Of a DNA stretch of 64,000 bases, positions 9,723 through 63,995 are shown one piece after another. The notes beneath the pieces were generated by a model. That model saw nothing but the letters and a program-made list of their open reading frames with translations. It was not told the origin of the DNA and ran no database searches. Both the position numbers and the translations under genes were made by a program. Each line of letters opens with the position of its first letter. Position 1 is the first letter of the stretch. The stretch lies in NCBI RefSeq assembly GCF_964213995.1, contig NW_027590117.1, positions 3,162,001-3,226,000 on the forward strand. The letters run 5' to 3'. The DNA comes from Mustelus asterias (lineage: Eukaryota).

Positions 9723-10163
9723 ATCCCGCAAGAAAATGATTCCTGTCCCGCAGCCCGGCTCGTTCTCAATAGAGATCATTTCAAATTCAGACTAAAGCAA
9801 AACACAGCAGATGCTGAATTTCATTTGAATTTCACATTTGTTCAATCGCCACTTTCTCTCATAATAAAGATGTCTGGTAGATTCAGTGTGAGACAGTAAC
9901 ACTGGCGGCTAAAAAGCGCTTTCCAACTTCAATTTTAACACAGGAGATTTCTCCAAACAGCTGCAATAAGGTATTTGTAAACAGCTGGAAGCGGATGTGG
10001 GTGAGGATGATACTGAGGGAGATTCTTGCTGTGTTTAGGTCGGAATATTACTGACTGGGAATTATAACGGGATGTGGAGATGCCGGCGTTGGACTGGGGT
10101 AAGCACAGTAAGAAGTCTCACAACACCAGGTTAAAGTCCAACAGGTTTATTTGGCAGCAAATA

Positions 10164-10200
10164 CCATAAGCTTTCGGAGCAATGCTCCTTCGTCAGATGG
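10164..10200 (-). ncRNA. Minimal type I hammerhead ribozyme in 3' pLTR
   Basis: Minus strand CCAT-CTGACGA-AGGAGC-ATT-GCTCC-GAAA-GC-TT-ATGG: complete core, stem I, stem II and palindromic AAGCTT stem III. Confidence 0.85.
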
Positions 10201-13029: not shown

Positions 13030-13066
13030 CCATCTGACGAAGGAGCATTGCTCCGAAAGCTTATGG
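13030..13066 (+). ncRNA. Minimal type I hammerhead ribozyme in inverted 5' pLTR
   Basis: CCAT-CTGACGA-AGGAGCATTGCTCC-GAAA-GCTT-ATGG, identical to the copy at 10164..10200. Confidence 0.85.
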
Positions 13067-13509
13067 TATTTGCTACCAAATAAACCTGTTGGACTTTAAC
13101 CTGGTGTTGTGAGACTTCTTATTATAACGGGGCCAGGTTTAAAAACACAAAAGCAAAGAGTCACGACCCGAAACGTTAACTCTGTCTCTCTCTCTCTCTT
13201 CACAAAAGCTGCCGGAGCTGCTGATTATTTGCAGCATTTTCTGTTTTGATTCCATATTTCAAAGCTCCGGGTTTGTGGAAACTCTTGTGTGTGAAGGGCG
13301 GCTCTGGAAGGGTTTGTGTGGGGAGCTGTGTTTCGCTTCCATTGTTCATAAACGGGTTGAAATTGGCGGTTGCAGAAACTGGAGGTGGAGCTGAAAGATC
13401 AGGGGCCGTTCTGTGTGTGTGTGTCAGTCCGGCTCTCTCCTCCCTCCCGCTCTGTGTTTAATCTTCACTCTGTCTCCTCCCCTCTCTGCTCTCACTCCGC
13501 CTTTCTGAG

Positions 13510-13977: not shown

Positions 13978-15173
13978 TGACCTGGGGACGGAGCTGGGAC
14001 AGGCTGTTCAGTGTTTGAGATGCATGTTTGTTTTGTTTAGGTTACAGTGCGGGAATCACCGAATTTAACATTTCATTTGGAGCAGCCATGCGGATTGTTT
14101 TTGAAATTTAGTGTATTGTCGAATCAGCCCACAGTTGACATGTGCCCTCAGTGAAACGCCACATCACTCCTGCCTAATCACAGTGTTTTCATAGTGTATC
14201 AAAGCTTTCTCTGGAATAGCGGAGTTTAGTAGCAGCAGCCGGTGAATCGTTCACTGGAACCAGTCCCAGTTGTGATGCTATTTGCGCCCAGACGGTTGTT
14301 TCCTGCACTGAAACTGACAGGCTTTGTGAAACTGATCAGTTTCCGCTCAGTCATTCACAAACCCGCAATTCCCGCAGTTTGAGCCGCTCCAACCCCAGCC
14401 TGCTTCTGATTGGCCATCCTCTCCACATTCGCAGCTCTGAACCAATCGCAGAGCATCGAATGTGAACATTGAGCCAATCATTGGCTTCAACTGTCAACCG
14501 GCAGAAATTTTGAATTGGGGGGAAATGCCGCCAATTTCAGCGCGGGAAAGGGAATTGAGACAAATTCTTAACTTATTAAAAATAGATTCTCAATTAATAT
14601 TCTGCTGTAAGATTATTTTACAAAGAGGTTTCATTTCTGAACATTTGTCCGCCACGGGCGGCAAACGGTTCTATTCAGTAATGTCAAACGGGACAAATAT
14701 GAAGTCACTCTCTGTAACAAACAACAGACTCAACCCCTTTCACACCGGCTTCAGGGAGACACAGAGAAGGATTCTGATCCTTTCCCGGAAACGGCGGCGA
14801 ATGTTACAAGCGGCACGAGAGGGGAAATCTGAATGGGCTGGAGAGCAGAGGGACAGGGATCGAGTGGAACAGCGGGAGATTCTGGGAATGAACAGCCCAG
14901 AGAGCGGGGAAAGGGTCTAAAGCACTAAGGGCAGGGAGATAGACTTCTTCAATATTTCGAGTCATGTTTGTTTTAATAAGGACGGGATAAATAGCCGTCT
15001 TTTATACAGACGGCTATTTCCTGCATCGAAAACGGCCCAATTTCTGAAAGGCGCGGTTAACAAAACAACCGAACCAATCAGAACCTGAGTTACAGACATT
15101 AATTCCCTGGTCAGAGTTTGATTGAAACTTCCTGGGCCAATTCCCGCTGGGGGCGGTTCCTCACAGAGTTTAA

Positions 15174-21200: not shown

Positions 21201-22848
21201 TTAGTCCGAGGAGAATTGGTGCGCAAAGATGCGGCAACACAAGGAGCCTGAATCGCTCGTAAATTGTGCCTTGCACTTTCAAGGTTACCACACAACGTCC
21301 TAGCACAGGGACAGACCGGGACCTTGATGCCATAGAGATTGTCTGTTTGGCAGGTTGAATCTGGAGTCCACACCTCTTTACAATGTCAGGGTGAATAAAG
21401 CTCTCAGTGCTCCCGCTGTAAAAAAGACAATAAATTGCACGACCATTTACCTGTATATCCATCATTGAACAGTCAAGCCTGTGGTGCTTAGCCTGGTTCA
21501 GGGTGATCGACGCCACCGTTGGTCCGTGAACGTCACTGCAGGCAGCTGAGGTCGATGCTGAGGACCCCTGCTGGTCGCTCATGGTCATCGTCGACCAAAA
21601 TGGCCGCCCCCATGAATCGCACATGGTTGAGGGCGCCAAACGTAGCGACTCCTGGTGGTCATCCTCCTCCGACTCCGTCGACCACAATGGCGTCGTCCTG
21701 GACTCGCACGTGGACGAACCCCGTGAGTACTTCGACGTCGATGGTGATGATCCCCGTTCCGAAGGGTCACAGGCTGCACTGCCGTTCTTGGGCTTCGATC
21801 TGCACACCTTCGCATAATGCCCCTTTTTACCGCATAGGTTACAGACCACCGCTTCAGCGGGACACTTTTGTCGTGGATGCTTGGCTCCTCCGCAGAAGTA
21901 CCACCGCGGGCCGCATGGGGCAGCAGCCGTCGTCGGGTCTACATGGGAGCACGCCATAACACTGCACTTCGAGCCCGTGAGGCGAGGAGGGATTTGCGAC
22001 TGCTCCTGCCACGTTGTCTCCACGTGGTCCTCCGGATACAGGACCAAGCTCTTCGAAGCCGCCTCAAGCATTTCAGCCAATTCCATAGCTTGGGTCAGGT
22101 TGAGATTTCCCTTTTCTAGCAGCTTGAGACGGATGTATGAAGACCCTACCCCTGCCACAAACGCATCTCGGGTGAGGTTATACATGTACTGCTCAGCCGA
22201 CACAGCTTTGCAGTCACAGCCCCTGGCAAGCTGCAAGAGCTCATTGGCGTAATCCTCCATGGTTTCGCCCGACTGCTGACGTCGTGTAGCGAGGAGGTAA
22301 CGAGCGTGGATCTCGTTGGGAGGTTTCGTGTAGCGCTTTTTTAAAAGCTCGAGGGCCCTCGGGTAAGTGGTGGCTGCACGGATCGCGAGGTAGACTGTGT
22401 CGCTTACCCTCGAATGGAGGACCCGGAGTCTGTCATCATCTGTGGTGACCGCTGCGGAGGCTGCCAGGTAGTCTTCAAAACACTTCAGCCAGTGGTCGAA
22501 GGTGTTAGAAGCGCCCACCGCACGTGGATCTAGCGTCAGACGTTCTGGCTTTAGGATTTGCTCCATACTCTCCTTTCTTTTTCCCTTCCGTCGAGAGCTT
22601 AATGTCAGACAATAAAATTGATGCGCGCCAATTGAACACGAGGCACGAAGCTTCGGTAACAGAAGGCTTTTATTGTCTAACAATGGAACTAATAGAACGT
22701 AAACACACTTTCCCAGACTGACGAGGTCCCGCCCGAGCAGGGGGTCTTATACCTCTCCCAGGAGGCGGAGCCCGACTGGGATGTGCCACAACAGTAACAA
22801 CAACAGGTGTATTAATCCCACAGTGGGAACCAACGATGGTTCACCACA
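18286..22848 (-). mobile_element. Full-length Ty3/Gypsy LTR retrotransposon (Mag-like gag), young insertion
   Basis: 230-bp LTRs at 18286..18515 and 22619..22848 (TG...CA, 3 differences by eye); 5-bp TSD GTGAA at 18281..18285 and 22849..22853; PPT 'caaaggaggggtgaa' next to the 3' LTR. Confidence 0.97.
18625..22566 (-). CDS. Gypsy gag-pol polyprotein (Gag-CCHC, PR, RT, RNase H, IN) in a single frame
   Basis: Probable start MEQILKPERL at 22566; CCHC 'CNLCGKKGHYAKVC'; PR site mutated to 'LFYSGS'; RT 'PFG...YLDN'; RNase H 'SDAS...EKEAQAI'; integrase HHCC and D-D-E ('VDFKG..SDRG..VEREN'). Confidence 0.9.
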   Translation of the reverse strand: MEQILKPERLTLDPRAVGASNTFDHWLKCFEDYLAASAAVTTDDDRLRVLHSRVSDTVYLAIRAATTYPRALELLKKRYTKPPNEIHARYLLATRRQQSGETMEDYANELLQLARGCDCKAVSAEQYMYNLTRDAFVAGVGSSYIRLKLLEKGNLNLTQAMELAEMLEAASKSLVLYPEDHVETTWQEQSQIPPRLTGSKCSVMACSHVDPTTAAAPCGPRWYFCGGAKHPRQKCPAEAVVCNLCGKKGHYAKVCRSKPKNGSAACDPSERGSSPSTSKYSRGSSTCESRTTPLWSTESEEDDHQESLRLAPSTMCDSWGRPFWSTMTMSDQQGSSASTSAACSDVHGPTVASITLNQAKHHRLDCSMMDIQVNGRAIYCLFYSGSTESFIHPDIVKRCGLQIQPAKQTISMASRSRSVPVLGRCVVTLKVQGTIYERFRLLVLPHLCAPILLGLNFMVHMKSVILQYGGPLPSLTVGEQLQSPNCPKRPACNLSTLKITTLSLFKNLVPGCKPIATKSRRYSTEDRIFIRSEVQRLLKEGIIQPSVSPWRAQVVVVKSGNKPRMVIDYSQTINRYTQLDAYPLPRISDMVNQIAQYRVFSTIDLWSAYHQLPIRPEDRHYTAFEADGRLYQFLRVPFGVTNGVSVVQRAMDRMVDQNRLRATFRYLDNVTICGRDQQDHDTNLQNFLRTASRLNLTSNREKCVFHTCRLAILGYVVENGVIGPDPDRMRPPAELPLPASAKALRRCLGFFSYYAQWVPNYADKASPLIKSTTFPLTPEAQLAFKELKHDIAKATMHAVDESIPFQVESDASDFALAATLNQAGRPIAFFSRTLQGPEIRHSAVEKEAQAIVEAVRHWRHYLAGKRFTLITDQRSVAFMFNNTQRGKIKNDKILRWRIELSTYNYDIMYRPGKLNEPSDALSRGTCATMQEDRLNALHNDLCHPGVTRLYHFIKARNLPYSVEDVRSVTRSCRICAECKPHCYRPDRAHLVKATRPFERLSVDFKGPLPSTDRNVYFLNIIDEYSRFPFVVPCADTSTATVIKAFRDLFTLFGYPSYIHSDRGSSFMSNDLRQFLLSCGIASSRTTSYNPRGNGQVERENATVWKAVLLALKSKGLPVSHWQEVLPNALHSIRSLLCTATNATPHERMFSFPRKSSSGISLPAWLTYPGPVLLRRQVRARKSNPLVEQVHLLHANPQYAYVAYPDGREDTVSIRDLAPAGDVATPVAPIPPVTNPLFLPRTWRGQHRDQCLTVLLQCTACLSPGDRRHRRVYRDPLHYRFIRVNRPVSPWGNSWTLFWGERHRKHLLRCHRRY

Positions 22849-30575: not shown

Positions 30576-30934
30576 AATTCCCTACAATTCCAATTCCAAT
30601 TTATACCAATCTTACCCATGTAACTGTCTAAATGCTTTTTAAAAGACAAAATTGTACCTACCTCTACGACTGCCTCTGGCAGCTCGTTCCAGACACTCAC
30701 AACTGTGTGTGTGAAAACCCTCTGGTTCTGGGTTCCTAGTCCATGAATCAGAAAAGGCTAATATAGATGTGCAGCAAATAATTAGGAATGCAAATAGAAT
30801 GTTATTGCTTAATGTGAGGAATTGTAGGGAATTGATGCTTCACTTGAACAGAACGAGGTGAGACCACATCTGGAGGATTGTATACAGTACTGGTCCCCTT
30901 ATCGAAAGAAAGATGTAAACACGTTAGAAGCAGT

Positions 30935-31627
30935 GTCAGTGTGCAATGAATACTCTCTCAATCTATCAGCGTGTGTGCGTGAAGAATCAACTCTCTCAAT
31001 CTATTACTGTATGGGTGTGGAATTAACTCTCAATCTATTAGTGTGAGAGTGTGGAATTAACTCTTTCTCAACCTATTACTGTGTCTCAGTGTGTAATTAA
31101 CTCTATCTTAATCTAGTGCTGTGTTTGGGTGGAATTAACCCTCTAACAATCTATTACTGTCTGTGTGTGTGTGGAATTAAAACTCTCTCAATCTAACAGT
31201 GTGTGTGGGTGTGGAATTAACTTTCTCTCAATCAGTTGCTGTGTGTCGGTGTGGAATTAACTCTATCTTAATCTATTACTGTGAGAGAGTGTGCAAGTAA
31301 CACTGACAATCTATTAGTGTGTGTGAGTGTGTGGTTAACTCTCTCTCTCAGTCTATTGCTGTGAGAGAGTGTGGAATTAACTCTCCCTCTCAATCTATTA
31401 CTGTGTGAGAGTGTGTTGAATTAACTAGCTGACAATATATTACTGTGTGTGTGTGTATGTGGAACTAACTCTCTCTCAATCTATTACTGTGTGAGAGTGC
31501 GTGGAATTAACGAGCTGACAATATATTACTGTGTGTGTGTGTGTATGTGTGTGTGTGGAACTAACTCTCAATCTATTACTGAGTGAGTGTGTGTGTGGTG
31601 TGTGTGGAACTAACTCTCTCTCAATCT

Positions 31628-31673
<46 letters not shown>

Positions 31674-33200
31674 AGTTGACTCTCTCAATCCATTAGTGTG
31701 TGAGAGCGGCAATTATAATTGTCTCAATCTACTACTGTGTGTCAGTGTGGCAGAAACTCTCTCTCAATCTATTACTATGTGAGAGTGTGGCAGTAACTCT
31801 CTGACAATCTATTACTATGTGAGAGTGTAGAATTATCACTCTCTCAATCTGTTACTGTGTGTAGAATTAATTCTCTCTCAATCTATTAAGGTGTGTGAGT
31901 GTGTAATTAACCCTCTGTCAGTCTATTACTGTGTATGAGTGTCGAATTAACTCTCTCAATCGATTAGTGTGTGAGTGTAGAATTAACTCTCTCACTCCAT
32001 TACTGTGTGTGAGTGTGGAAATGACTCTCTTCTATTACTTTATCGATTACTGTGCAGAATTAACTCTCTCAATCTATTATTGTATGTGAGTGTGGAATTA
32101 ACTCTATCCTATTACTGTTTGTGCATGTGTGCGTGTGTGTGGAATTAACTCTCTCTCAATCTATTCCTCTGTGTGATTGTGGAAGTAGCTCTCTCAATCT
32201 ATTGCTGTGTGTGTGTTGAATTAACTCTCTCTCAATCTATTGCTCTGTCAGTGTGGAATTAACTCTCTCTCAATCTATTGCTCTGTCAGTGTGGAATTAA
32301 CTCTCTCACAATCTATTACTGAGTGTGAGTGTGGAATTAACTATCTCTCAATCTATTACTGAGTGCAAGTGTGCAAATAATACTCTCTCAATCTATTACT
32401 GTGTGAGAGGGTGGAATTAACTCACATCTATTACTCGGTGCGAGTGTGGAATTAACTCCCTCTCAATCTATTCCTCAGAGTGTGTGGAATTAACTCTCTC
32501 TCAATCGATTACTGAGTGTGAGTGTGGAATTAATTCTCTCTCAATTTATTACTGTGTGAGAGGGTGGAATTAACTCCCATCTATTACTATGCATGAGTGT
32601 GGAATTAACTCCCTCTCAATCTATTACTATGTGATAGTGTGGAATTAACCGTCTCAATCTGTTAGTGTGTGTGTGTGGAATTAACACCCTCTGAATTGAA
32701 TTGTGAGAGAGTGTGGAATTATCTCTCTCAATCTATTACTGTGTGCGAGTGTGCAATGAATAATCTCTCAATCTATCACTGTGTGAGTGTGTAATTAACT
32801 CTCTCTCAAACTATTACTGTGTTTCAGTGTGGAATTAACTCTCAATCTATTACTGTGTGTCAGTGTGGAATTGACTCTCTCTCAATCTATTGCACTGTGT
32901 GCGAGCGTGGAATTAACTGTCTCTCACTGTATTGTTGTGTGTGAGGATGGAAGAACTCTCTCTCAATCTATTACTGTGTGAGAGTGTGGATGTAACTCTC
33001 TCTCAATATGTTACAGTGTGAGAGTGTGAAATTGACACTCTCTCAACCAATTACTGTGTATGTGTAATTAACTCCCTCTCAAACTATTACTGAGTGTGAA
33101 TGTGGAATTAACTCTCTCTCAATCTGTTACTGTGTGATTGTAGAAATAACTCCCTAGCTATCTATCAATAATGTATGCAATTAACTGTCAGTCTCTGTTA
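30935..33200 (+). repeat. Satellite array, ~36-40-bp unit
   Basis: Consensus 'tgtgtgagtgtggaattaactctctctcaatctattac' repeated dozens of times, with variable (TG)n and (CT)n tracts. Confidence 0.95.
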
Positions 33201-36306: not shown

Positions 36307-36434
36307 AGGATATTTAGAGTCACATGGACAAAAATGTCTGTCTCTCCTGCTCTGTTTGATTGATGGATTGAAAACGTGTCTGCAACTATTTCTGCTCTCT
36401 GAGACCGTTGAACTAATAAGATGTCTGTGTGTCT

Positions 36435-37669
36435 GGAATTGGTTGCATCCTTGGACATACGCATCTCCATCAAGGACGGTCACCTCAGCACTTCACTGTA
36501 CCACAAGCACATGGATAACCTCATGATGCTCCACTTCTCCAGCTTCCATCCTATACACGTTAAAGAAGCCGTCCTCTGTGGACAAGCCCTCTGTATACAC
36601 AGGATCTGCTCAGATGAGGAGTATTGCAACAGACACCTACAGACGCTGAAAGATGCCCTCATAACAACAGGATATGGTGCTCGACTCATTGACCGACAGT
36701 TCCGATGTGCCACAGAAGACAAACACAGGACATGATAGACAGAGTACCCTTCATTGTCCAATCCTTCCCCAGAGCGGAGAAGCTACGACATCTTCTCCGG
36801 AGCCTTCAACATGTCAAGTATGAAGACGAACATCTCGCCAAGGCCATCCCCACACCCTCACTTCTCGCCTTCAAACAATCGCATAACCTCAAACAGACCA
36901 TTGTCTGCAGCAAATTACCCAGCATTCAGGAGAACATTGACCACGACACCACACAACCCTGCCACAGCAACCTCGGTAAATGTGCCGGATCATTGACACT
37001 GATGCCATCATCTCACATGAGAACACCATCCACCACGTACACCGTACATATTCTTGCGAGTTGGCCAATGTTGTCTACCTGACACGCTGCAGGAAAGGAT
37101 GTCCCAGGGCATGGCACATTGGAGAGACTATGCAGACACTATGACAACGGATGAATGAACACCGCTCAACAATCGCCAGGCAGGAGTGCTTCCTTCCTGT
37201 CGGGGTACACTTCAGCAGTCATGGGCATTCAACCTCTGATCTTCGAGTAAGCGTTCTCCAAGGTGGCCTTCACGACACATGACAACGCAGAATCACTGAG
37301 CAGAAACTGATAGCCAAGTTCCGCACACATGAGGACGGCCTCAACCGGGACCTTGGGATCATGTCACACTATCTGTAACCCCCACAACTTGCCTGGGCAA
37401 AATATCAATAACTGTCCTGGCTGGAGACAATACACACCTCTTTAACCAGTGCTTGGCCCTCTCTCCACTTACACTGTCTGTAATTTTAAGACTTGATTAC
37501 CTGTAAAGACTCGCATTCTTACCATTATCTTGTAAATTGAGTTTGTGCCTGTATGTGCCCTGTTTGTGAACACAGCTTCTCACTCACCTGAAGGAGCCTG
37601 AGACTCCAAAAGCTTGTGCTGCCAAATAAACCTGTTGGACTTTAACCTGGTGTTGTGAGACTTCTTACT
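36435..37669 (+). mobile_element. 5'-truncated Penelope-like element (RT end, GIY-YIG, 3' pLTR), degraded
   Basis: ORFs 36421..36735 and 36705..37082 are paralogous to 10847..11392; pLTR at ~37580..37669. Confidence 0.9.
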
Positions 37670-39290: not shown

Positions 39291-39699
39291 TTATAGCTCC
39301 GGGAGGAATGGAGGTGTGGACATTGCTGATTGGTCACTTTGTTGCTGCCTCTCAGCATCTTGTTCATATGACCAATCAGAAACCTGCTTAACTCACCAAT
39401 CCGGAGAGCCCACGGAGTGAGGGCGGAAAATAACGGCGCCAAAATCTCAGATTCGAACCGATTTCATTTCAAACTGTAAAAGCCACCAAAGCGGAAAGAA
39501 CAAGAGTTTCGAAAATTATACGAATAGGTAATGGTTAATTAATTTTGAGTAATGTAAGAATCTCCCTTTCTCTCCTTCCCCAGTCTATAGTTAACCTGTA
39601 TCTGGCAGTTTCTGATTTTCAGCCTGGGCTTTTCGGAAAATAAGTCGAAAATAACAAACCGTTGCTGATCGTGAAATCTGAATTCAAATTTCCTTTCCT

Positions 39700-40336
39700 T
39701 TACCCCAATTCCGTCGGGACCTGGGGTGGAGGGTGATGCATGCAGCAGTTCCGCACAACCGTAGGATTCACTGGTTCACGGGCTCCGAAGACTGCCCTTT
39801 CTTCGGCCTTGTGGAGTCCGTGGACCATGTCTATGTTGTGTGTCTTAGGCTGCACTCCCTTTATGTTTTCCTAAAGAACCTTTTGTTGATGTTTTGTTTG
39901 CACTTCAGTCCCACGCTCCTGATCTCCGGACACCCGGTGCGGAGAGGGGAGGGTCGGATGGCGACCTCCTCGTGAACCTGCTCCTGGGCCTGGCGAAACG
40001 CGCCATTTACCGGGCCAGGCTGCGGGCGATCGAGGGGGCCGTCCATCCTGACTGTCTTCCCCTCTACCGCGGCTACGTTCGCGGCCAGGTGTCCCTGGAG
40101 AGGGAGCATGCGGTGTCCACGGGCGAGGTTGACGCTTTCCGCGCCCGCTGGGTACCGCAGGGGTTGGGGTGCATTATTGGCCCTAATAATCACATTTTAA
40201 TTTTATGTTTTTAAGTTTCCTTTGTACTTTGATTTCTGTTCGGGCTGTTCCCCCTCCTTTTTGGGGAGCTGCCCCTTTTACTTTGTCCTGATTTAATCTG
40301 AGTTTGTTTACTTGGTTTGGTTTGACCTAAAAAGAG
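39700..40336 (+). mobile_element. Tx1/L1-clade LINE 3' fragment
   Basis: C-terminal zinc-knuckle region 'W..MHAAV....CPF.G.VESVDHVY..C.RL', 'LVNLLLGLAKRAIY', pyrimidine-rich 3' UTR. Confidence 0.75.
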
Positions 40337-41136
40337 GACAACACCTACATTTAAAAAAAATCTCCCTTTCTCTCCTTCCCCAGTCTATAGTTAACCTGTA
40401 TCTGGCAGTTTCGGATTTTCAGCCTGGACTTTTCGGAAAATAAGTCGAAAATAACAAAATTTTCACTATTCATTTTTGAAAAGTTCGCAGATGTATTTAT
40501 AAAACAAGAAATACATTTCAAATAAAATCTCTCAATAATTAACTGTTGAACAACAAAGTGTTTAAAACATCAGTATCTGTTTGCACCATTTCACATTTTA
40601 TCCCAAGTTGCAGATTTGCTTTTAGAATCCTGGATCCATTCGGGGTTAATCTCGGCCCTTTTTAAAACTCTCGAACTCGCCGCCAGAAAGTCTCATTGAC
40701 ATCGTTCTGTAAACGGACGGGATGTTCTCCATATTCGTGAGAATCAAGAGGGGAGTGAACATTTTCGGTGTAAATTGACCAGTGCCGAGACTGAGGTTCC
40801 TGCACAATCGGGGCTGATAGGGAATAAACTGATCGATTATCAAGACCAAACTGGAACAGAATTGGAAGCTGACACATTTGCTCCATTCGCTCTCTCTCTC
40901 TCTCTCTCTCTCTAAAGTCGGGGAAACGGGCCTCTGAGATCTAAGTGCGGAGGCGGTCGGAAACCAATTAATTAATTAATGAAACATTATTAATCAGACG
41001 CTGGGCGATCAACTTGCATTACTCAGTACCTATCATTGATCAACAGTAAAAACAATTAGATTGTTCGAGACGCTTCAGAGTGAAAGATTAATTGAAACTA
41101 AATGGATGATACAGCTTTTTCAGGGAGATTGTGAGT

Positions 41137-41186: not shown

Positions 41187-41561
41187 TTACTTGGAGCTGG
41201 TGTACTTAGTCACCGCCTTTGTCCCTTCCGACACGGCGTGCTTGGCCAGTTCCCCGGGCAGCAGCAGGCGCACGGCGGTCTGGATCTCCCGGGAGCTGAT
41301 GGTGCTGCGCTTGTTGTAATGGGCCAGGCGGGAAGCCTCACCCGCGATGCGCTCGAAAATATCGTTCACGAACGAGTTCATGATGCTCATGGCCTTGGAG
41401 GAGATGCCGGTGTCGGGGTGAACCTGCTTCATCACTTTGTAGATGTAGATGGAGTAACTCTCCTTCCTCGACTTTCGCCGCTTCTTCCCGCCCTTTATTA
41501 CCGGTTTCTTAATCACTTTCTTCGCCCCCTTCTTAGGAGCTGCTTTCTTCTCATCCACCAT
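41187..41561 (-). CDS. H2B: Histone H2B (copy 1), 124 aa
   Basis: [12 protein letters not shown]...[27 protein letters not shown]...[10 protein letters not shown]; ATG at 41561. Confidence 0.98.
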
Positions 41562-41611
41562 TGTCACAGTTAATTTCAGACACAGAATCACTGAGTCGCG
41601 CTCGGAACTCC

Positions 41612-41722
41612 TCTTTTATGGATCAAAGCAGAGGCCTATGCTAATGAAGGATTGCTGAAAGCCCTGTTCCCCATTGGCTCATTCACAATGATGTCAATTC
41701 GTGACGCTCTCTCTCTGATTGG
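41612..41722 (-). promoter_or_regulatory. H2B promoter: TATA-like CATAAAAG, octamer variant ATTAGCAT, two CCAAT boxes
   Basis: Minus strand order CCAAT...CCAAT...ATTAGCAT...CATAAAAG upstream of the ATG. Confidence 0.75.
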
Positions 41723-41747
41723 TTAGTTCAGATACACAAACACATAG

Positions 41748-42072
41748 TTTTTTTTATACTTTTCCAATTCAATCAAATCTAATTCAGAGTCTCAACAAGT
41801 TGAGACATTTCAGATCCAGGCTGACAAGACAGGACGGGAGACCAAAACCACCCTGTCCTGGGCCTGATCGACATGAGTCAAGCTGATTGGAGAAGGGGGA
41901 GGATCCTCCTCCAAGACTTGAGCTCATTTGCATCTTAGCCAAAAGGCCGAGATGCCGCTTTTAAAAATTGCTTCATATGAAACATATGAAGCCTCAGCGT
42001 AACCTAATGACCTCAACCAAGTGCAGGCAATCCATACTACACTTGATCTGAGCCAAAAGGCCGAGAAGCGAT
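41748..42072 (-). mobile_element. U2 snRNA-headed, poly(A)-tailed short retroelement (copy 1)
   Basis: Begins ATCGCTTCTCGGCCTTTTGGCTCAGATCAAGTGTAGTAT (U2 nt 1-39, one mismatch); second U2 piece (nt 7-27) at 41932..41952; ends TATAAAAAAAA; second copy at 47220..47543. Confidence 0.85.
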
Positions 42073-47063: not shown

Positions 47064-47752
47064 AGATGTCGTGATGCCGGCATTGGACTGGGGTGGGCAT
47101 GGTAAGAAGTCTCACAACACCAGGTTCAAGTCGAACAGGTTTATTTGGTAGCACGAGCTTTCGGAGCACTTCTCCTTCCTCAGGTGAGTGGAGAATTGGG
47201 TTCACAAACAGAGCATATATTTTTTTTATACTTTTCCAATTCAATCAAATCAAATCCAATTCAGAGTCTCAACAAGTTGAGACATTTCAGATCCAGGCTG
47301 ACAAGACAGGGCGAGCGACCAAATCACCCTGTCCTGGGCCTGATCTACATGAGCCAAGCTGATTGGAGAAGGGGGAGGTTCCTCCTCCAAGACTTGAGCT
47401 CATTTGCATCTTAGCCAAAAGGCTGAGATGCCGCTTTTAAAAAATTGCTTCATATGAAACACACGAAGCTTCAGTGCAACCCAATGACCTCAACCAAGCG
47501 CAGCCGACCATACTACACCTGATCTCAGCCAAAAGGCCAAGAATGAATCAGCTCATCAGCTGACTATTACATCACTCTGTGATTGGTTCCATGCTTTGTT
47601 GGGTCAGCTGACCCTTACATCTTGTTCCCATTGGTCACATTACATCCAATCAAAGTTGTCCCCGGTTACACTCCAACAAGGAGCAGCGTGCTGAAAGCTC
47701 ATGCCACCAAAAAATCCAGATGGACTTTAACCTGGTATTGTGAGACTACTTG
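47064..47752. mobile_element. Composite insertion: inverted PLE pLTR pieces enclosing U2-headed element copy 2, with 11-bp TSD
   Basis: pLTR (-) at 47064..47219 with intact hammerhead; pLTR (+) at ~47678..47752; CTAGAACAAAT at 47052..47062 and 47753..47763. Confidence 0.7.
47220..47543 (-). mobile_element. U2 snRNA-headed short retroelement (copy 2)
   Basis: Colinear with 41748..42072 over its whole length; U2 nt ~6-39 at 47510..47543; poly(A) at 47220..47227. Confidence 0.85.
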
Positions 47753-50599: not shown

Positions 50600-51820
50600 A
50601 AAGTTCTTTGAGGAGGCAAAAGGAAGTTCGATAAAGGAGAACCAGTGGACGTGATTTATTTAGATTTCCAGAAGGCCTTCTGACACGGTGCGGAGTCGGA
50701 GACTGTTAAATAAGTTAAGAGCCCATGATGTTAAGGGTAAGATCCAGGCATGGATAGAGGATTGGCTGACTGGCAGAAGGTGGGGATAAAGAGGTCTTTT
50801 TCAGGATGGCAGCCGATGTTGAGTGGTGTGCCTCAGGGATCAGTGCTGGGACCACAACTTTTCACCATATACATTAACAATTTGGAAGCAGGAAGTGAAA
50901 GCTCTGTTGCTAAGTTTGCAGATGATACAAAGACATGGAGAGGGACAGGTAGTACTGAGGAAGCAGGGAGGCTGCAGAAGGACTTGGACAGGCTAGGAGA
51001 GTTGGCAAAGAAGTGGCAGATGGAATACAATGTGGAAAAGTGTGAGGTTATGCACTTTGGAGGGAGGAATGGAGGCATAGACTATTTTCTAAATGGGGAA
51101 ATGCTGAGGAAATCAGAAGCGCAAAGGGACTTGGGAGTCATTGTTCAAGATTCTCTTAAGGTTAACCGGCAGGGTCAGTTGGCAGTTCGGAAGGCAAATG
51201 CAATGTTAGCATTCATGTCGAGAGGGATACAATATAAGAGCAGTGATGTACTTCTGAGGCTGTACAAGGCTCCAGTCACACCCCATTTGCAGTATTGTGA
51301 GCAGCTTTGGGCCCCGTATCTAAGGAAGGATGTGCTGGCCTTGGAAAGGGCCCAGAGGAGGTTCACAAGAATGATCTCTGGAATGAAAAGCTTGTCATAT
51401 GAGAAACGGTTGAGGACTCTGAGTCTGTACTCATTGGAGTTCACAAGGATGAGGGGGGACCTTGTTGAAACTTATAGGATACTGTGAGGCCTGGATAGAG
51501 TGGACATGGAGAGTTTGTTTCCAAAATCAGGAAAAACTAGAACCAGAGGGCACAATCTCAGGCTAAAGGGACGATCCTTTAAAACAGAGATGTGGAGTAA
51601 TTTGTTCAGCCAGGGACTGGTGAATCTGTGGAACTCTTTGTTGCAGAAGGCTGTGGAGGCCAAGTCATTGAGTGTTTTTTAAGACAGAGATAGGTAGACT
51701 TGATTAATAAGGGGACCAGGGATTATGGGGAAAAGGCAGAATGAGGAAGAGAAAAATATCAGTCATGATTGGCGGATAAGACTCGATGGGCCGAGTGGCC
51801 TAATTCTGCTCCGATAACTT
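50600..51820 (+). mobile_element. CR1-like LINE 3' fragment
   Basis: ORF 50750..51487 '[19 protein letters not shown]' plus 3' tail. Confidence 0.85.
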
Positions 51821-51827
51821 ATGGTCT

Positions 51828-52395
51828 CACACACTATCAGAGTGAGTAAATCCCGCAATCACACACTGTATCAGAGAGTGAGTAAATCCCACACTCTCAC
51901 ACTGTATCAGAGAGTGAGTAAATCCCACACTCTCACACTGTATCAGAGAGTGAGTAAATCCCACACTCTCACACTGTATCAGAGAGTGAGTAAATCCCAC
52001 ACTCTCACACTGTATCAGAGAGTGAGTAAATCCCACACTCTCACACTGTATCAGAGAGTGAGTAAATCCCACACTCTCACACTGTATCAGAGAGTGAGTA
52101 AATCCCACACTCTCACACTGTATCAGAGAGTGAGTAAATCCCACACTCTCACACTGTATTAGAGTGAGTAAATCCCCCACACACACACTGTATCAGAGAG
52201 TGAGTAAATCCCGCACTCACACACGGTATCAGAGAGTGAGTAAATCCCACACTGTATCAGAGAGTGAGTAAATCCCACACGGTATCAGAGAGTGAGTAAA
52301 TCCCACACTCTCACACTGTATCAGAGAGTGAGTAAATCCCACACTCTCGCACTGTGTCAGAGAGTAAGTAAATCCCACACTCACGCACATTACCA
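51828..52395. repeat. Homogeneous 36-bp minisatellite
   Basis: Unit 'atcagagagtgagtaaatcccacactctcacactgt', about 15 copies, many of them perfect. Confidence 0.95.
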
Positions 52396-52573
52396 GAGAT
52401 TCACAGTTCCTGAAGGAATCCCACACTCCCGCACAGTTCTTCTGTGGAGAAGGGTCCCTCACACCGACAGCCAGGCGACATTTCCCGTTGGATCTTTTTT
52501 TTTAAGTGTTTAAATCACCATCTTTAATTTACTTAGGACAAAACAGCTTTAACTATACCCTCCATGTTCAGTG

Positions 52574-52882
52574 TCAATTTGCTGATTCAGTGACTTTATT
52601 TGGTCTGCGCCCTTGAAACAATTTTCTGTTTCTCTGAACTTGAAGCTTTGCCCCTTCAAGGAGGCGTGGTTCCTTCTGCAGTGCATTCTGAAGCCCTTCT
52701 TCTGTATTGAAGCCAACCCAACAGAATCCTCTACGAAATCCAGTCTCTTTTTCGAATGGAAGAAGACATTTCTTTACTAATCCAAACTGTCCAAAATATT
52801 CTTTGATTTCTTTGCCGGCCAGGGTCCAGGGCACCCGCGACACGAAGATCTCGAAGCTCTTTCTGGAAGGAGCCGCCGCCAT
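52574..52882 (-). CDS. SLIRP: SLIRP (SRA stem-loop-interacting RNA-binding protein, mitochondrial RRM protein), intronless retrocopy, 102 aa
   Basis: 'IFVSRVPWT...KEYFGQFG.VKKCLLPFEKETGFRRGFCWVGF..EEGLQNALQ' matches the SLIRP RRM; ATTAAA signal, A9 tail (52495..52503) and 15-bp TSD (52483..52497 / 52900..52914). Confidence 0.9.
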   Translation of the reverse strand: MAAAPSRKSFEIFVSRVPWTLAGKEIKEYFGQFGLVKKCLLPFEKETGFRRGFCWVGFNTEEGLQNALQKEPRLLEGAKLQVQRNRKLFQGRRPNKVTESAN

Positions 52883-53136
52883 CTTGTAATGGCCGCCGGT
52901 CCCGGTGGATCTTTACACACTGAGAAACTGGCGCTGGAGATTCTTTGTAAAATGTATTTCCTGATTGTGGTAAGGAGGCTTGTGATTGGCGGAAACTTCT
53001 CAATCTGATTGGTCTGTTTTCATATCCACTCAAATGAACCCCTGATAAGTGACTGTAATAACTTTCAAAATGTCGAATCACAATCATTGCTTTCCCAATT
53101 CCTCATTAGCATAGTTCTGTGGGACTGTCTATTTAC

Positions 53137-53259
53137 GGTAAGAAGTTTAATAACACCAGGTTAAAGTCCAACAGGTTTATTTGGTAGCAAAAGCCACACA
53201 AGCTTTCGAAGCTCTAAGCCCCTTCTTCAGGTGAGTGGGAATTCTGTTCACAAACAGAG
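53137..53259 (-). mobile_element. Solo PLE pLTR fragment with intact minimal hammerhead, inside the H2B promoter
   Basis: 'aacaccaggttaaagtccaacaggtttatttggtagc'; minus strand CAC-CTGAAGA-AGGGGC-TTAGA-GCTTC-GAAA-GC-TT-GTG. Confidence 0.85.
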
Positions 53260-58648: not shown

Positions 58649-59249
58649 TCTTGAATGATGGTGCAGGACTGAGGGGCTGAATGGCCTGACTCCTGTCCAT
58701 ATTTCTAATATGATAGTAACCGTCATAATTGATTCCATTTTATTTTGATTTTTGGTTTTCATCTTTATTTTCTCTTGATTTTGCTTTCAGCTGGCAGCTG
58801 TTCATCATTCTTCCATTCACACCTCCTTCAGACACATCTCTGTTTGCTGTTACTTGTTCCTTTCCCACTCCCTTGCAGCACCAATTATTTTATTACTTAA
58901 TCACTCCTGCCCTCCACCTTGCTTTGGAAAGCACAAGACAAAAGGTTCCACTAATTTCAGTAATGAGGCGGGAGCAGGATAAATTAATAATCTGACAGTA
59001 AATAAACATCAAACACTGAGTGACCGCAATATGTTAGAGGCAGACATTCAGTGCGTGGAGAAAGGACACACGCAGGTCACAGTTTTGACCTTAAGTAAGG
59101 CCGAGAAGGGTGAAATGTGTTGTAAACTGTACATGTTAAAATCCGTCCAGCTGTGAAGAGGCGAATCAAGGGAACAATCAGAGAGACTGAAAAAAGTATT
59201 TCATACAATGTGTATCTAATGAAAGCCTGAAGAAAGGAAACTTCACGTT

Positions 59250-59811
59250 CTCTCTGCTTTGGAACTGTGCTCTCTGCTGTGGAACTGTCTTCTCTGCTGT
59301 GGAACTGTGCTCTCTGCTGTGGAACTGTGCTCTCCGCTGTGGAACTGTGCTCTCCGCTGTGGAACTGTGCTCTCCGCTGTGGAACTGTGATCTCTGCTGT
59401 GGAACTGTGATCTGTGCTATGGAACTGTGCTCTCTGCTGTGGAACTGTGCTCTCTGCTGTGGAACTGTGCTCTCTGCTGTGGAACTGTGCCCTCTACTGT
59501 GGAACTGTGATTCCTGCTGTGGAACTGTGCTCTCTGCTGTGGAACTGTGCTCTCTGCTGTGGAACTGTGCTCTCTGCTGTGGAACTGTGCTCTCTGCTGT
59601 GGAACTGTGATATCTGCTGTGGAACTGTGATCCCTGCTGTGGAACTGTGATCCTTGCTGTGGAACTGTGCTGTCTGCTGTGGAACTGTGATCTCCGCTGT
59701 GAAACTCATTTCCCTGTTGTGGAAAAGTACTCTCTGCTGTGGAACTGTGCTCTCTGCTGTCAAACTGTGATCTCTGCTGTGGAACTGTGCTCTCTGCTGT
59801 GAAACTGTGCT
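59250..59811. repeat. 20-bp minisatellite
   Basis: Unit 'ggaactgtgctctctgctgt', ~28 copies. Confidence 0.97.
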
Positions 59812-61164
59812 CAGGGGTAACATTTTCCACTCTCCAAACTGCTGAGACTGTTAAAGAATGTAGACAATGTTGGATCCATTCTTCCCATTGCCACTTCCTT
59901 TCGTATCCTGTGATGTAGATTATTGGGCCTTGGAGATTTTGCAGCCCTCAGTCCCATTAATTTCTCCAGCACTATATATTTTAGTAATATTAAATCCCCC
60001 CAATTTCTAGACCATGGTTCCCGAGCATTGCTGGGAAGTTATTTGTGTGTTCCTCCATGAAGACAGCATGAAAACACTTATTTAATTGCGCTGCCATTAC
60101 CTTGTTCTCCGTTATAAATTTGCCCATATCCGAATGCAAAGCACCTAAATTTGTCTTTGTTATATTTTTTCACACACGAACATAAGCTTTAATAGTCCAA
60201 TTGTAAGCGACTTGCAAGTTCACTCTCCTACAGCATTTTATCCCTCTAATCAATCTCTTTATCCTCCTTTCCTAAAATAAAAACTGTTCCCAATCCTTGG
60301 GATTGCAACTTTTTCTTTCAACTTTATAAAAATCATCATCAGATCTAATAATACGTAATTTTATTAGCCATGATTAGGTCATTTTTCCTGTTATGTTTCT
60401 GCGACTGAAGGAAATGTACAACTGTTACAATGCAAGCATTTCTTCCTTAAATATCAGACACTGCCTATCCACCTTCGTGCCCCTTCATCGAGTTTCCCAA
60501 TCTATTTTAGCCAACTCACCTGTAATACATTCTGAGTTTCCGTTGTTTAGAGCTGGGACTTCAGTTTAAGCTTGGATTTGAATCTTTGTTCTGACTGAAG
60601 ACAGGTGTTTCACAAAGCAGACACTCAGTCTATCCAATCTAGAGCAAACCACATTGTGAGCATTGAATGTATTCTACCAAATTGAAACATAAAACGTTCA
60701 GATACATCAATATTTCTCCTGGCCGTATAATTAAGGTCTTGAACAATGCGTACTGATAATGGAGCTTTCCATTTGAGAAATTCTGATATTTCTTCCTTTT
60801 TCCTCAGCCACTGATCTCCCCACTCTGTGGCTGACAGCATTCTCATCTGTGTCCGCTCTTGTCCCACACCTCTGCTCTCACCCCGTCTCTATATTCTCTG
60901 TATTATGATAATGCTTTCTCCTTTAAATTACCAACTTCTTCAATGGATTAGCTCTCATTGAATGTTTTTAAGGCAAGGATAGATAAATTTTTGAACAGTA
61001 AAGGAATTAAGGGTTATGGTGAGCGGGTGGGTAAGTGGAGCTGAGTCCACAAAAAGATCAGCCAAGATCTTATTGACTGGCGGAGCAGCCTCGAGGGGAC
61101 AGATGGCCTACTTCTACTCCTAGTTCTTATGTTCTTCATCCCACATTCATACACAATAAATGAT

Positions 61165-63995
61165 TGTGAGAGAGTAAATTTCACACACACACACAGTAAT
61201 AGATTGAGAGAGAATTAATTCCAGACTGCCACACAGTAATACACTGAGAGTTATTTCCACTCTCGCACACATTAATAGATTGAGAGAGTGTTAATTCCGC
61301 ACCGACACACGGTAATAGATTGAGAGGGAGTTAATTCCACACTGACACACAGTAATATGTTGAGACAGAGAGGTAAATTCATACTGACATACAGTAATAG
61401 ATTGAGAGGGAGATAATTCCACACTCATACATAGAAAATTACAGCACAGGAACAGGCCCTTCGGCCCTCCAAGCCTGCAACGACCATGCTGTCTGACTCA
61501 ACTAAAACCCCCTACGCTTCCGGGGACCATATCCCTCTATTCCCATCTCATTCATGTACTTGTCAAGACACCCCTTAAAAATCACTACCGTATCCGCTTC
61601 CACTCCCTCCCCCGGCAACGTGTTCCAGGCACCCACCACTCTCTGTGTAAAGAATCTGCCTCATATATCTCTTTTAAAACTTGCCCGTCGCACCTTAAAC
61701 CTATGCCCCCTATTAATTGACTCTTCCACCCTGGGAAAAAGCTTCTCACTATCCACTCTGTCCATGCTTCTCATAATCTTGTAGACTTCTATCAGGTCTC
61801 TCCTCACCCTCCGTCACTCCAGTGAGAACAAACCAAGTTTCTCCAACCTCTCCTCATAACTAATGCCCTCCATACCAGGCAGCATCCTGGTAAATCTTTT
61901 CTGTACCCTCTCCAAAGCCTCCACATCCTTCTGGTAGTGTTGCGAACAGAATTGAACACTATATTCCAAGTGCGGCCTCACTAAGGTTCTATAAAGCGTC
62001 AACATGACTTGCCAATTTTTAAACTCAATACCCCGGCCGATGAAGGCAAGCATGCCGTATGCCTTCTTGACTACCTTCGCCACCTGCATTGGCACTTTCC
62101 GTGACCTGTGTACCTGTACACCCAGATCCCTTTGCCTATCAATACTCCTAAGGGTTCTGCCATTTACTGTATATTTCCTATCTGTATTAGACCTTCCAAA
62201 ATGCATTACCTCACATTTGTCTGGATTAAATTCCATCTGCCATCTCTCCGCCCAAGTCTCCAACTGATCTATATCCTGCTGTATCCTCTGATGGTCCTCA
62301 TCGCTATCCACAAATCCACCAACCTTTGTGTCGTCGACAATCTTACTAATCAATCCAGTTACATTTTCCTCCAAATCATTTATATATATTACAAACAGCA
62401 AAGGTCCCAGCACTGATCCCTGAGGAACACCACCACCCCAAGCAATAGATTGAGAGACTGTTAATCCCACAGTCACACACAATGAATGATTGAGAGAGAG
62501 TGAATTCCACACCGACACACAGTAATAGATTGAGAGGGAATTAATTCCACACTCTCACAAACAAATAGATTGAGAGAGTTAATTCAACACACACACACTG
62601 TAATAGATTGAGACAGAGAGCTAATTCCACACTGACATACAGTAATAGATTAAGAGGGAGATAATTCCACACTCTCTCTGTTTTGGATTGCGAGAGAGAT
62701 GATTCCACACTGAGACACAGTAATAGATTGAGAGAGTTAATTTCACATTCACACACACTAATAGACTGAGAGAGTTAATTCAACACACACACACTGTAAT
62801 AGATTGAGACAGAGAGCTAATTCCACTGTGACATACAGTAATAGATTGAGAGAGAGAGAATTCCACACACTCACACAGTTATAGATTGAGAGAGAGTTAA
62901 TTCCACACTCATACAAGTAATAGATTGAGGGACCGTTAATCCCACAGTCACACACACAAATGATTGAGAGGGAGTGAATTCCACTCCGACACATAGTAAT
63001 AGATTCAGAGAGAGTTAATTCCAGACTGACACAGTAATAAATTGAGAGAGTTATTTCCATTCTCTCACACAGTAATAGATTGAGAGAGAGTTAGTTCCAC
63101 ACTCAGACACACTAATCGATTGAGAGAGTTATTTCCACACCCATACACACCAATAGATTGAGAGAGAGTTATTCTACGTTCCCACACAGTAATAGATTCA
63201 GAAAGAGTCAATTCCACACTGACACTGTAATAGATTGAGCGAGAGTTAATTCCACATTCACACACAGGAATAGATTGCGAGTTAATTCCATGCTCTCTCA
63301 CAGCAACAGATTGAGAGAGAGTTAATTCCATGCTCTCTCACAGCAACAGATTGAGAGAGAGTTAATTCCACACTGACACAGGAATAGATTGTGAGAGAGT
63401 TAATTCCACACTGACACAGGAATAGATTGAGAGAGAGTTAATTCAACACTCTCTCACAGTCATAGATTGAGAGTTAATTCCACACCCTCACACAGTAATA
63501 GATTGAGAGGGAGTTAATTCCACACTGACACACAGTAATAGAGTGAGAGAGAGAGATAAATCGACACTCTCACACAATAAAAAATTGAGAGAGAGTGAAT
63601 CCACACAGACACACAGTAATAGATTGAGAGAGTTTATTCCACACTGACACACAGTAATAGATTGAGAGAGAGTTAATTCCCCACACACACAGTAATAGAT
63701 TGAGAGAGTTTATTCCACACTGACACACAGTAATAGATTGAGAGAGAGTTAATTCCCCACACACACAGTAATAGATTGAGAGAGTTTATTCCACACTGAC
63801 ATACAGTAATAGATTGAGAGAGAGATAATTCCACACTCACACAGGTGATAGATTGAGGGACCGTTAATCCCAGTCACACACAAATGATTGACAGGGAGTG
63901 ATTTCCAATCCGACACATAGTAATAGATTCAGAGAGAGTTAATTCCAGACTGACACAGTAAGAAATTGAGAGTTATTTACACACACACACACAGG
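61165..63995 (-). repeat. Satellite array (same ~36-40-bp family as 30935..33200, opposite orientation), interrupted by a CR1 fragment
   Basis: Unit 'cacacagtaatagattgagagagttaattccacact' is the reverse complement of the 31-33 kb unit. Confidence 0.93.
61430..62440 (-). mobile_element. CR1-like LINE 3' end inserted in satellite
   Basis: ORF 61814..62518 '[20 protein letters not shown]...LVRPHLEYSVQF' plus 3' tail. Confidence 0.88.

What the first reader, a model, noticed from the sequence alone, without database searches (positions are those of the whole stretch)
41748..42072. U2 snRNA-headed, poly(A)-tailed short retroelement family (SINEU-like) in a probable shark genome, two copies in the window
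Seen: the minus strand reads U2 nt 1-39 (ending just after the branch-point recognition sequence GUAGUA). Next comes an ~80-nt segment with a perfect hairpin (cttcatatg-ttt-catatgaag) and an Sm-site-like AATTTTT. Then a second U2 stem-loop I copy (nt 7-27) is fused to an octamer ATGCAAAT, followed by CCAAT, more hairpins (gtctcaac-tt-gttgagac) and a poly(A) tail. A colinear copy lies at 47220..47543, so this is a repeated unit and not a one-off U2 pseudogene. No PSE is visible upstream, so this copy was probably retroposed. Known: snRNA-headed SINEs (SINEU) were described in crocodilians, and the Keno (Tx1) and Utopia LINEs target U2 genes near this position. Inference: this is a non-autonomous element transcribed from a master locus under a U2 promoter, possibly derived from a U2-targeting LINE. 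Both 3' flanks (ctatgtgtttg / tatgctctgtttg) weakly resemble U2 nt 36-46 (GTATCTGTTC), which could reflect residual target preference.
Basis: partly seen in the sequence, partly recalled or inferred. Interest (0 to 1): 0.82.

Follow-up and report, generated by a model that had tools for sequence, protein, structure and literature searches.

The report
Self-masking U2-headed shark retroposon
A short repeat in a shark genome starts with the front end of the splicing RNA U2, folds back to cover that end and finishes in a poly(A) tail; it looks like a jumping element of a kind described so far in crocodilians, though only two copies could be examined.

Summary
Two minus-strand copies (41748-42072, 47220-47548) are 90% identical over 343 columns. 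Their similarity starts at the U2 5' end, stops at an A8 tail, and their flanks are unrelated. The window is a shark histone cluster, probably Mustelus asterias.

Nt 47-72 is an antisense arm, rich in G·U pairs, that covers U2 nt 11-36. Differences between the copies mostly keep pairing (0 of 9 hit pairs broken A→B; 4 of 11 B→A), which suggests selection on, or editing of, a sense-strand RNA.

Not supported: the 'octamer' is a diverged second U2 head; the Sm-like motif lacks the consensus G; neither junction matches the Keno/Utopia target; copy B's 'U2-like' flank is a Penelope end; there is no target-site duplication. The tail does not significantly match the window's L1/Tx1-like fragment.

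Best reading: a SINEU-like non-autonomous retroposon, transcribed from a source copy under an external (probably U2) promoter and moved by an L1/Tx1 enzyme. Copy number, partner LINE, expression and Repbase/Dfam status could not be checked. New variant of a known kind.

The parts
41748..42072 (-). Copy A, full-length U2-headed element (325 nt)
   Evidence: fold z -7.67, 0 of 100 shuffles as stable
42034..42072 (-). Head 1: U2 snRNA nt 1-39 (one difference from the Rfam consensus in the conserved stretch, nt 23), ending at the Keno/Utopia cut position 38/39
   Evidence: for the insertion position
42001..42026 (-). Antisense arm (nt 47-72) pairing with head nt 11-36: 15 Watson-Crick + 7 G·U of 26 positions in A, 12 + 10 in B; tandem U·U, and in B a tandem G·A/A·G
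   Evidence: duplex -30.8 kcal/mol, reached by 22 of 12,636 window 40-mers and 7 of 5,000 shuffles
41970..41992 (-). Hairpin H2 (10 bp; two G·U pairs in copy B)
41961..41969 (-). Oligo-U stretch between H2 and H3 (Sm-site-like but lacking the G; also a Pol III-terminator-type T run)
41926..41955 (-). Head 2: older, diverged U2 nt ~2-33, folded as an extended stem-loop I (H3); the 'octamer' is its 3' end
   Evidence: head1/head2 alignment; fold
41873..41927 (-). Hairpin H4 (non-U2 body)
   Evidence: sense z -4.5, antisense -2.0
41813..41869 (-). Hairpin H5; holds the one two-sided change (G-C in A, A-U in B), next to an indel
41789..41806 (-). Hairpin H6
41748..41788 (-). T/G-rich tail (ATTTG repeats, one more unit in B) and A8; no AATAAA or ATTAAA
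47220..47548 (-). Copy B (329 nt; clear similarity from U2 nt 6 at 47543), A8 at 47220-47227
   Evidence: fold z -8.53, 0 of 100 shuffles
47065..47219 (-). 3' flank of copy B: Penelope-type terminal repeat (context, not part of the element)
   Evidence: RT and GIY-YIG of the window's Penelope copy
41187..41747 (-). 3' context of copy A: histone H2B promoter (2 CCAAT, ATTAGCAT, TATA-like) and gene; the A tail lies 187 nt before the ATG

Best explanation
A non-autonomous, SINEU-like retroposon of a carcharhiniform shark. Shown: a ~325-nt non-coding unit made of U2 nt 1-39, an antisense arm, a hairpin, an older U2 head, three more hairpins and an A tail, present twice with unrelated flanks. Inferred (1): copies have no promoter of their own, since internal T runs argue against Pol III and there is no tRNA head. 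One or more source copies are therefore transcribed by Pol II from an outside promoter, most simply a U2 gene promoter because the RNA starts at U2 nt 1. Inferred (2): the RNA folds into a chain of hairpins; the arm pairs with U2 nt 11-36 and so hides the U6-pairing segment and most of the branch-point recognition sequence, which keeps the transcript from acting as a defective U2 and stabilises it. Inferred (3): the A tail is used by an L1/Tx1-clade ORF2 protein in trans for target-primed reverse transcription, here without a target-site duplication. Inferred (4): the present form arose when a new U2 head was added in front of an older U2-headed element, as in SINEU-1.
For: Similarity runs from the U2 5' end to the A tail and stops there. 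Both U2-to-body junctions are shared by the two copies, so they descend from one composite rather than from separate chimeras. The two-headed build, poly(A), oligo-T and missing promoter match Kojima's SINEU description. Folding z is -7.7 and -8.5, against -5.3 and -4.9 on the opposite strand; 0 of 196 window tiles reach -7.6 (rough z). The 5' rod folds only on the sense strand (z -4.0 versus -0.8), with G·U:A·C = 7:1 in A and 10:0 in B. With pairs defined from A alone, 0 of 9 pairs hit by substitutions are broken in B, against about 6 expected (P 0.0005-0.001), which neutral decay after a DNA duplication would not give. A 5'-truncated L1/Tx1-like insertion whose 98-bp duplicated flanks differ at only 2 sites shows that this clade was recently active in the genome.
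Against: Only two copies were seen, 5 kb apart; no genome-wide count was possible. There is no target-site duplication. No partner was identified: the tail does not significantly match the window's L1/Tx1-like 3' UTR (59-336 of 1,000 shuffles score as high). The reverse structure test is not significant (4 of 11 pairs broken, P 0.10-0.16). A strand-neutral helix count gives G·U:A·C 3:2 in A (not significant) and 7:1 in B (P 0.035), and the rod's register was chosen from the sense fold. Covariation from two sequences does not exceed its shuffle control (245 of 500). The 3' flanks share an 8-mer (212 of 50,000 random pairs; 63 of 4,000 for 40 nt), which this model does not explain. No source locus or RNA was seen.
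Confidence: 0.62

Rival explanations
1. An internally deleted Keno (U2-targeting Tx1 LINE): the source copy sits in a U2 gene at nt 38/39 and is co-transcribed with U2 nt 1-38, and the body is the LINE's joined 5' and 3' UTRs. It would then be a non-autonomous LINE rather than an independent SINE.
For: The head stops at nt 38/39, the shared Keno/Utopia insertion point. Tx1-Mar, the presumed SINEU partner, clusters with Keno and some of its families carry U1/U2 heads. This origin gives a U2 promoter for free.
Against: Neither copy is followed by U2 nt 39 onward, nor preceded by a GTAGTA-like site. 3'-truncated snRNA copies also arise through L1 at single-stranded segments with no targeting LINE (that section does not give the U2 positions in text). 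The crocodilian Utopia 3' end has no poly(A) and does not resemble this tail by eye. No Keno sequence was available to compare.
Confidence: 0.16
2. Retrocopies of a host non-coding RNA gene: a shark-specific, U2-derived, snRNA-like RNA that is Sm-bound and possibly regulates U2 through its antisense arm. The copies here would be dead processed pseudogenes.
For: Strong, sense-specific, substitution-tolerant structure. The oligo-U sits between two hairpins as Sm sites do; it is predicted unpaired in A. Polyadenylated snRNAs are known to be retrocopied.
Against: The Sm consensus G is missing in both copies, and the motif occurs in 5-10% of shuffles; in B it is predicted mostly paired. No match to a recalled 3'-box pattern in the window. 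The copies differ at 21 of 310 sites, a lot for copies of one conserved gene unless they decayed, yet they have not decayed structurally. No Rfam family other than U2 matches.
Confidence: 0.1
3. A one-off chimeric retrocopy duplicated locally at DNA level within the unstable histone cluster.
For: Both copies lie 5 kb apart on one strand in a cluster with duplicated histone genes; both have exactly A8 and a weakly similar 3' flank; no TSD.
Against: The 5' flanks are unrelated and similarity ends at the RNA boundaries. The substitution pattern A→B is not neutral. A two-headed, six-hairpin composite is unlikely as a single event.
Confidence: 0.07
4. Mobilised by, or targeted to, Penelope elements: copy B is a template-switch chimera of the U2-headed RNA and a 5'-truncated Penelope end, or an insertion into one.
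For: B's A tail abuts a Penelope terminal repeat, and another truncated Penelope copy starts 6 nt further along the same repeat. SINEU-3 is known to target another transposon.
Against: A's 3' flank does not match other Penelope copies (794 and 808 of 4,000 random windows score as high), nor does B's 5' flank. Penelope ends are common in this window.
Confidence: 0.05

Closest known systems
SINEU-1/-2/-3 of crocodilians (Kojima 2015, PMC4494074)
   Same: U2-derived 5' head, repeated U-derived segments, poly(A), under 500 bp, internal oligo-T, no internal promoter, TSD often absent.
   Different: Reported only in crocodilians; they prefer Mariner-N4_AMi and are moved by Tx1-Mar. The text read mentions no arm antisense to the head and no RNA-structure analysis. 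Homology of the bodies could not be tested.
Keno (Tx1 clade) and Utopia (RLE) U2-targeting non-LTR retrotransposons (PMC4640811; PMC6136364)
   Same: U2 broken at nt 38/39; a copy in a U2 gene would yield an RNA beginning with U2 nt 1-38.
   Different: They encode RT and endonuclease and are followed by U2 nt 39 onward or a similar site; this element is non-coding and both copies lie outside U2-like sites.
3'-truncated and chimeric snRNA retropseudogenes (Doucet et al. 2015, PMC4476161)
   Same: Truncated snRNA joined to other sequence through LINE machinery.
   Different: Those are independent events, usually with TSDs; here two copies share both junctions and a structured body.
U2 snRNA (Rfam RF00004)
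   Same: nt 1-39 nearly identical.
   Different: Lacks U2 beyond nt 39; the 5' end is predicted to be sequestered by the arm (stem-loop I probability about 0).

Membership tests
SINEU | 5' head derived from U1 or U2 snRNA | tested here: met
   Rfam U2 nt 1-39 in both copies
SINEU | 3' poly(A) tail | tested here: met
   A8 in both copies, short
SINEU | Short (<500 bp), non-coding | tested here: met
   325/329 nt; longest stop-free frame wholly inside is 58 codons; no credible protein relative for the two frames searched
SINEU | Repeated 5' addition or duplication of U-derived segments | tested here: met
   Second, more diverged U2 segment at nt ~118-149
SINEU | Internal oligo-T and no Pol III head | tested here: met
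   T4-T6 runs at nt 15, 105/106, 129; no tRNA hit at either copy
SINEU | High copy number of one shared structure (a replicating family, not independent chimeras) | tested here: inconclusive
   2 copies in 64 kb with shared junctions and unrelated flanks; rest of genome unavailable
SINEU | Mobilised by a Tx1-clade LINE with shared target preference | tested here: inconclusive
   Tail versus the window's L1/Tx1-like 3' UTR not significant; shared 8-mer in 3' flanks, n=2
SINEU | Sequence homology to the crocodilian SINEU-1 3' body | not testable with these tools
   Supplement unavailable; no Repbase or Dfam
Keno / Utopia | 5' U2 fragment ends at nt 38 | tested here: met
   Match runs to nt 39; site
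Keno / Utopia | 3' flank is U2 nt 39 onward or a U2-like target | tested here: not met
   Flanks begin CTATGTG and TATATGC; B's is Penelope; compare
Keno / Utopia | Encodes RT and endonuclease | tested here: not met
   No such ORF
Keno / Utopia | Shares termini with an autonomous shark Keno (for a non-autonomous derivative) | not testable with these tools
   No eukaryotic nucleotide collection available
Sm-class snRNA | Sm site PuAUUUNUGPu | tested here: not met
   AAUUUUUAA (A) and AAUUUUUUA (B) lack the G
Sm-class snRNA | Stem-loops flanking a single-stranded site | tested here: inconclusive
   Unpaired in A (0.81-1.0), mostly paired in B's ensemble (0.14-0.43 over the U run)
Sm-class snRNA | Upstream PSE/DSE and downstream 3' box | tested here: inconclusive
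   Recalled consensus patterns: no same-strand PSE-like hit upstream of either copy, no upstream octamer, no 3' box in the window; shark consensus unknown

The most novel reading that the evidence does not exclude
The antisense arm is the working part: the element is an snRNA-promoter parasite whose arm pairs with its own U2 head in cis and with cellular U2 snRNA in trans (duplex about -30 kcal/mol over nt 11-36). Pairing in trans would hold U2 where reverse transcriptase can jump onto it near nt 39 and add a fresh head, explaining the repeated U2-head additions seen in SINEUs. It could also make the RNA a natural regulator of U2. It would be a retroposon or domesticated snRNA-like gene that recognises the spliceosomal RNA it came from.
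Probability: 0.15. Interest if true: 0.87.

Novelty: new variant of a known kind. Interest (0 to 1): 0.62.

Why it matters
In the papers found, snRNA-headed SINEs are described only from crocodilians, and how they are transcribed is stated there as an open question (PMC4494074). A second, probably independent, example in sharks would show that the design recurs. Because these copies are little decayed, the source locus, its promoter and its RNA should be findable in a finished assembly, which makes that question directly testable. The arm that hides U2's splicing-active 5' end suggests how a parasite can use a spliceosomal RNA's start without disturbing splicing. One copy also sits just upstream of an H2B promoter.

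Tried and rejected
1. Partner LINE in the window: element tail against the 3' UTR of the L1/Tx1-like fragment near 40200-40360; 218, 336, 249 and 59 of 1,000 shuffles scored as high in the four comparisons. Rejected as evidence.
2. Indirect copy search through predicted proteins: the 49-codon sense frame gave no hit among near-length or longer proteins. A 69-codon antisense frame gave 3 hits at 36-39% identity; the best is a repeat protein with 9 of 26 identities per stretch; the other two were not examined. Only 2 of the possible frames were searched. Uninformative about copy number.
3. A 19-mer of the body in prokaryotic genomes: 3 hits, about the 4 expected by chance (my arithmetic), none extending beyond 32 nt.
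4. Octamer as a regulatory element: rejected. U2-like target preference: rejected at the junction register. TSD: none adjacent to the junctions.
5. Ribozyme: no Rfam ribozyme at E≤1, no hammerhead core pattern.
6. ADAR editing as the source of B's G-for-A differences: possible (8 of 12 differences in nt 6-117 are A/G; nt 23 and 30 are A→G relative to U2). But two sites could be CpG decay in A, the arm also carries U-for-C wobbles, and the control SINE pairs show similar A/G skews. Left open.
7. The Atlas search for the L1/Tx1-like fragment gave no usable hit.
8. Viral and metagenome contigs stayed unchecked. No shark nucleotide collection, Repbase or Dfam was available.

Full report
OBSERVATION. 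BLAST gives 90.1% identity over 343 columns, E 8e-129. A profile of the two copies finds only these two in the window. Rfam calls both U2 (47.3 and 42.2 bits; gathering score 46), but only U2 nt 1-39 align well. Similarity begins at the U2 5' end (nt 1 in A, clearly from nt 6 in B) and ends at an A8 tail. The 5' flanks are unrelated and no target-site duplication adjoins the junctions. The copies differ at 21 of 310 aligned sites, within the 9-24 per ~246 seen among six pairs of the window's common SINE-like repeat.

CONTEXT. The window is a histone cluster (H1, H4, H3, two H2A, two H2B; 7 histone stem-loop hits) among LINE, Penelope and Gypsy remnants. The H1 protein falls in a 26-member cluster whose 14 listed named members are all Mustelus asterias; the H2B cluster holds other sharks. 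The window is therefore a carcharhiniform shark, probably that species. Copy A ends 187 nt before an H2B start codon, just upstream of its CCAAT boxes. Copy B's 3' flank is a Penelope terminal repeat.

Folded as RNA, A and B have z-scores of -7.67 and -8.53, with 0 of 100 shuffles as stable. The opposite strands give -5.3 and -4.9. None of 196 tiles of the window reached -7.6 and 4 reached -5 (six shuffles per tile and a fixed SD, so rough, and tiles were not centred on the element). The non-U2 body alone scores -4.5, so U2's own hairpin is not the cause. The consensus is six hairpins. The first is unexpected: nt 47-72 is antisense to U2 nt 11-36. On one ungapped register A has 15 Watson-Crick, 7 G·U and 1 A·C positions out of 26; B has 12, 10 and 0. 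Head-arm duplexes of -30.8 and -33.1 kcal/mol are matched by 22 and 1 of 12,636 window 40-mers and by 7 and 1 of 5,000 shuffles. The rod is sense-specific (z -4.0 versus -0.8). In the ensemble it abolishes U2 stem-loop I and pairs nt 25-36, but forcing stem-loop I costs only 5-7 kcal/mol, so a switch is possible.

IS THE STRUCTURE UNDER SELECTION? With pairs defined from A alone (81 pairs, probability ≥0.9), substitutions hit 9 pairs and break none; strand-symmetric simulations break about 6 (P 0.0005-0.001 in 20,000 runs). Defined from B (90 pairs), 4 of 11 are broken (P 0.10-0.16); two of these four are register or gap-placement shifts that the consensus fold keeps paired. A strand-neutral count gives G·U:A·C of 3:2 in A and 7:1 in B; 159 and 3 of 392 tiles are as skewed. 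Covariation from two sequences is at control level (245 of 500 shuffles). I read this as moderate evidence that the copies descend from structured sense-strand RNAs of slightly different source copies, or were edited as RNA, rather than from one DNA duplication followed by neutral decay. That is the main support for 'family' beyond the count of two.

CORRECTIONS. The 'octamer' aligns with U2 nt 26-33 of a second, more diverged head, its ATGC extends that hairpin, and octamers are not enriched in the window (5 versus 3.7). The Sm-like motif lacks the G of PuAUUUNUGPu (consensus from PMC6954390, passages), occurs in 5-10% of shuffles, and is unpaired in A but mostly paired in B. Keno and Utopia insert between U2 nt 38 and 39, and relaxed Utopia sites keep GTAGTA|TCTG-like junctions (PMC4640811: passages, part 2 of 5 of the text, supplement 1 part 1 of 8, supplement 4 part 1 of 2; PMC6136364, passages). 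Neither junction here fits. The 3' flanks do share TGTTTGTG (212 of 50,000 random pairs; 63 of 4,000 over 40 nt); this is unexplained and could be a different target preference. Recalled PSE and 3'-box patterns found nothing in place, which is weak evidence because the shark consensus is unknown.

MECHANISM. Shown: the anatomy, RNA-like ends, T runs at nt 15, 105 and 129, no AATAAA and no tRNA head. Inferred: Pol II transcription of a source copy from an outside promoter, most simply a U2 promoter; folding that hides the U6-pairing segment and most of the branch-point recognition sequence (roles of these U2 segments are from my own knowledge); reverse transcription in trans by an L1/Tx1 ORF2 protein primed on the A tail; and origin by addition of a new U2 head to an older headed element. 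A young L1/Tx1-like insertion at about 39659-40360 (98-bp duplicated flank with 2 differences; weak zf-RVT match below Pfam's cut-off) shows such enzymes were active, but its tail does not significantly match. Confidence 0.62. Rivals: a deleted Keno co-transcribed with U2 (0.16), retrocopies of a host snRNA-like gene (0.10), local duplication (0.07), Penelope link (0.05).

COMPARISON WITH KNOWN SYSTEMS. Kojima 2015 (PMC4494074; parts 1-4 of 5 read, covering the main text; figures and supplements not available) defines SINEU by U1/U2 heads, repeated head addition, poly(A), internal oligo-T and no promoter, finds them only in crocodilians, and leaves transcription open. This element works like SINEU and meets the structural criteria. 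Copy number and partner are untested, and homology to the crocodilian body could not be examined, so I call it SINEU-like and probably independent. It is not a Keno or Utopia member (no ORFs, wrong flank) and does not meet the Sm-class snRNA consensus. Doucet et al. (PMC4476161; passages and section 8) show that truncated snRNA heads arise without targeting LINEs, so the nt-38/39 end is suggestive only.

NOVELTY. Searches (7 papers with SINEU and snRNA) listed no shark snRNA-headed SINE and no SINE with an arm antisense to its own head; most of those papers were seen only as listings. Passages of PMC5786205 and PMC7245038 cite only Kojima 2015 for this class, and the shark SINE paper PMC5499810 has no occurrence of 'snRNA'. 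The library lacks most subscription journals, and Repbase Reports and Dfam were not searchable, so the family may already be catalogued. Indirect searches for more copies were uninformative.

VERDICT. A real feature and a new variant of a known kind; interest 0.62. The class is known and the family claim rests on two copies, but the lineage appears new, the self-masking arm was not found in print, and the element offers a direct route to the open question of how SINEUs are transcribed.

Noticed in passing
window ~39659-40360 (+): 5'-truncated, frameshifted L1/Tx1-like 3' end with an A tail, flanked by an unusually long duplicated sequence of 98 bp (2 differences), inserted upstream of an H2A gene; weak zf-RVT match.
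   Followed up: partly
window 52574-52882 (-): Intronless 102-aa RRM reading frame (Pfam RRM_1; SLIRP-like by recall, not tested), head-to-head with the H2B gene at 53334.
   Followed up: partly
window 53137-53259 (-): Penelope terminal repeat inserted between the promoter motifs and the coding sequence of the second H2B gene.
   Followed up: partly
window 47065-47219 (-) and 47678-47751 (+): Copy B and a ~130-nt CCAAT-rich spacer lie between two outward-facing Penelope ends.
   Followed up: partly
window ~10071-13121 (-) and 36432-37669 (+): Penelope element with RT and GIY-YIG domains split over several frames, plus a decayed second copy.
   Followed up: partly
window 18625-22683 (-): 1352-aa Gypsy-type reading frame with protease, RT, RNase H and integrase domains.
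   Followed up: no
window 14301-14625: Tile between the H4 and H3 genes that folds well on both strands (rough z -5.6 and -4.5); not identified.
   Followed up: no
window 41638-41645 (-) and 53105-53112 (+): Both H2B promoters carry ATTAGCAT next to a CCAAT box, one base from the usual H2B octamer (recalled), and neither has a divergent H2A partner.
   Followed up: no
window 30930-33150, 51770-52460, 59130-59930, 61130-63970: Tandem arrays of ~40, 36, 20 and ~40 bp units; the first and last are the same satellite in opposite orientation.
   Followed up: no
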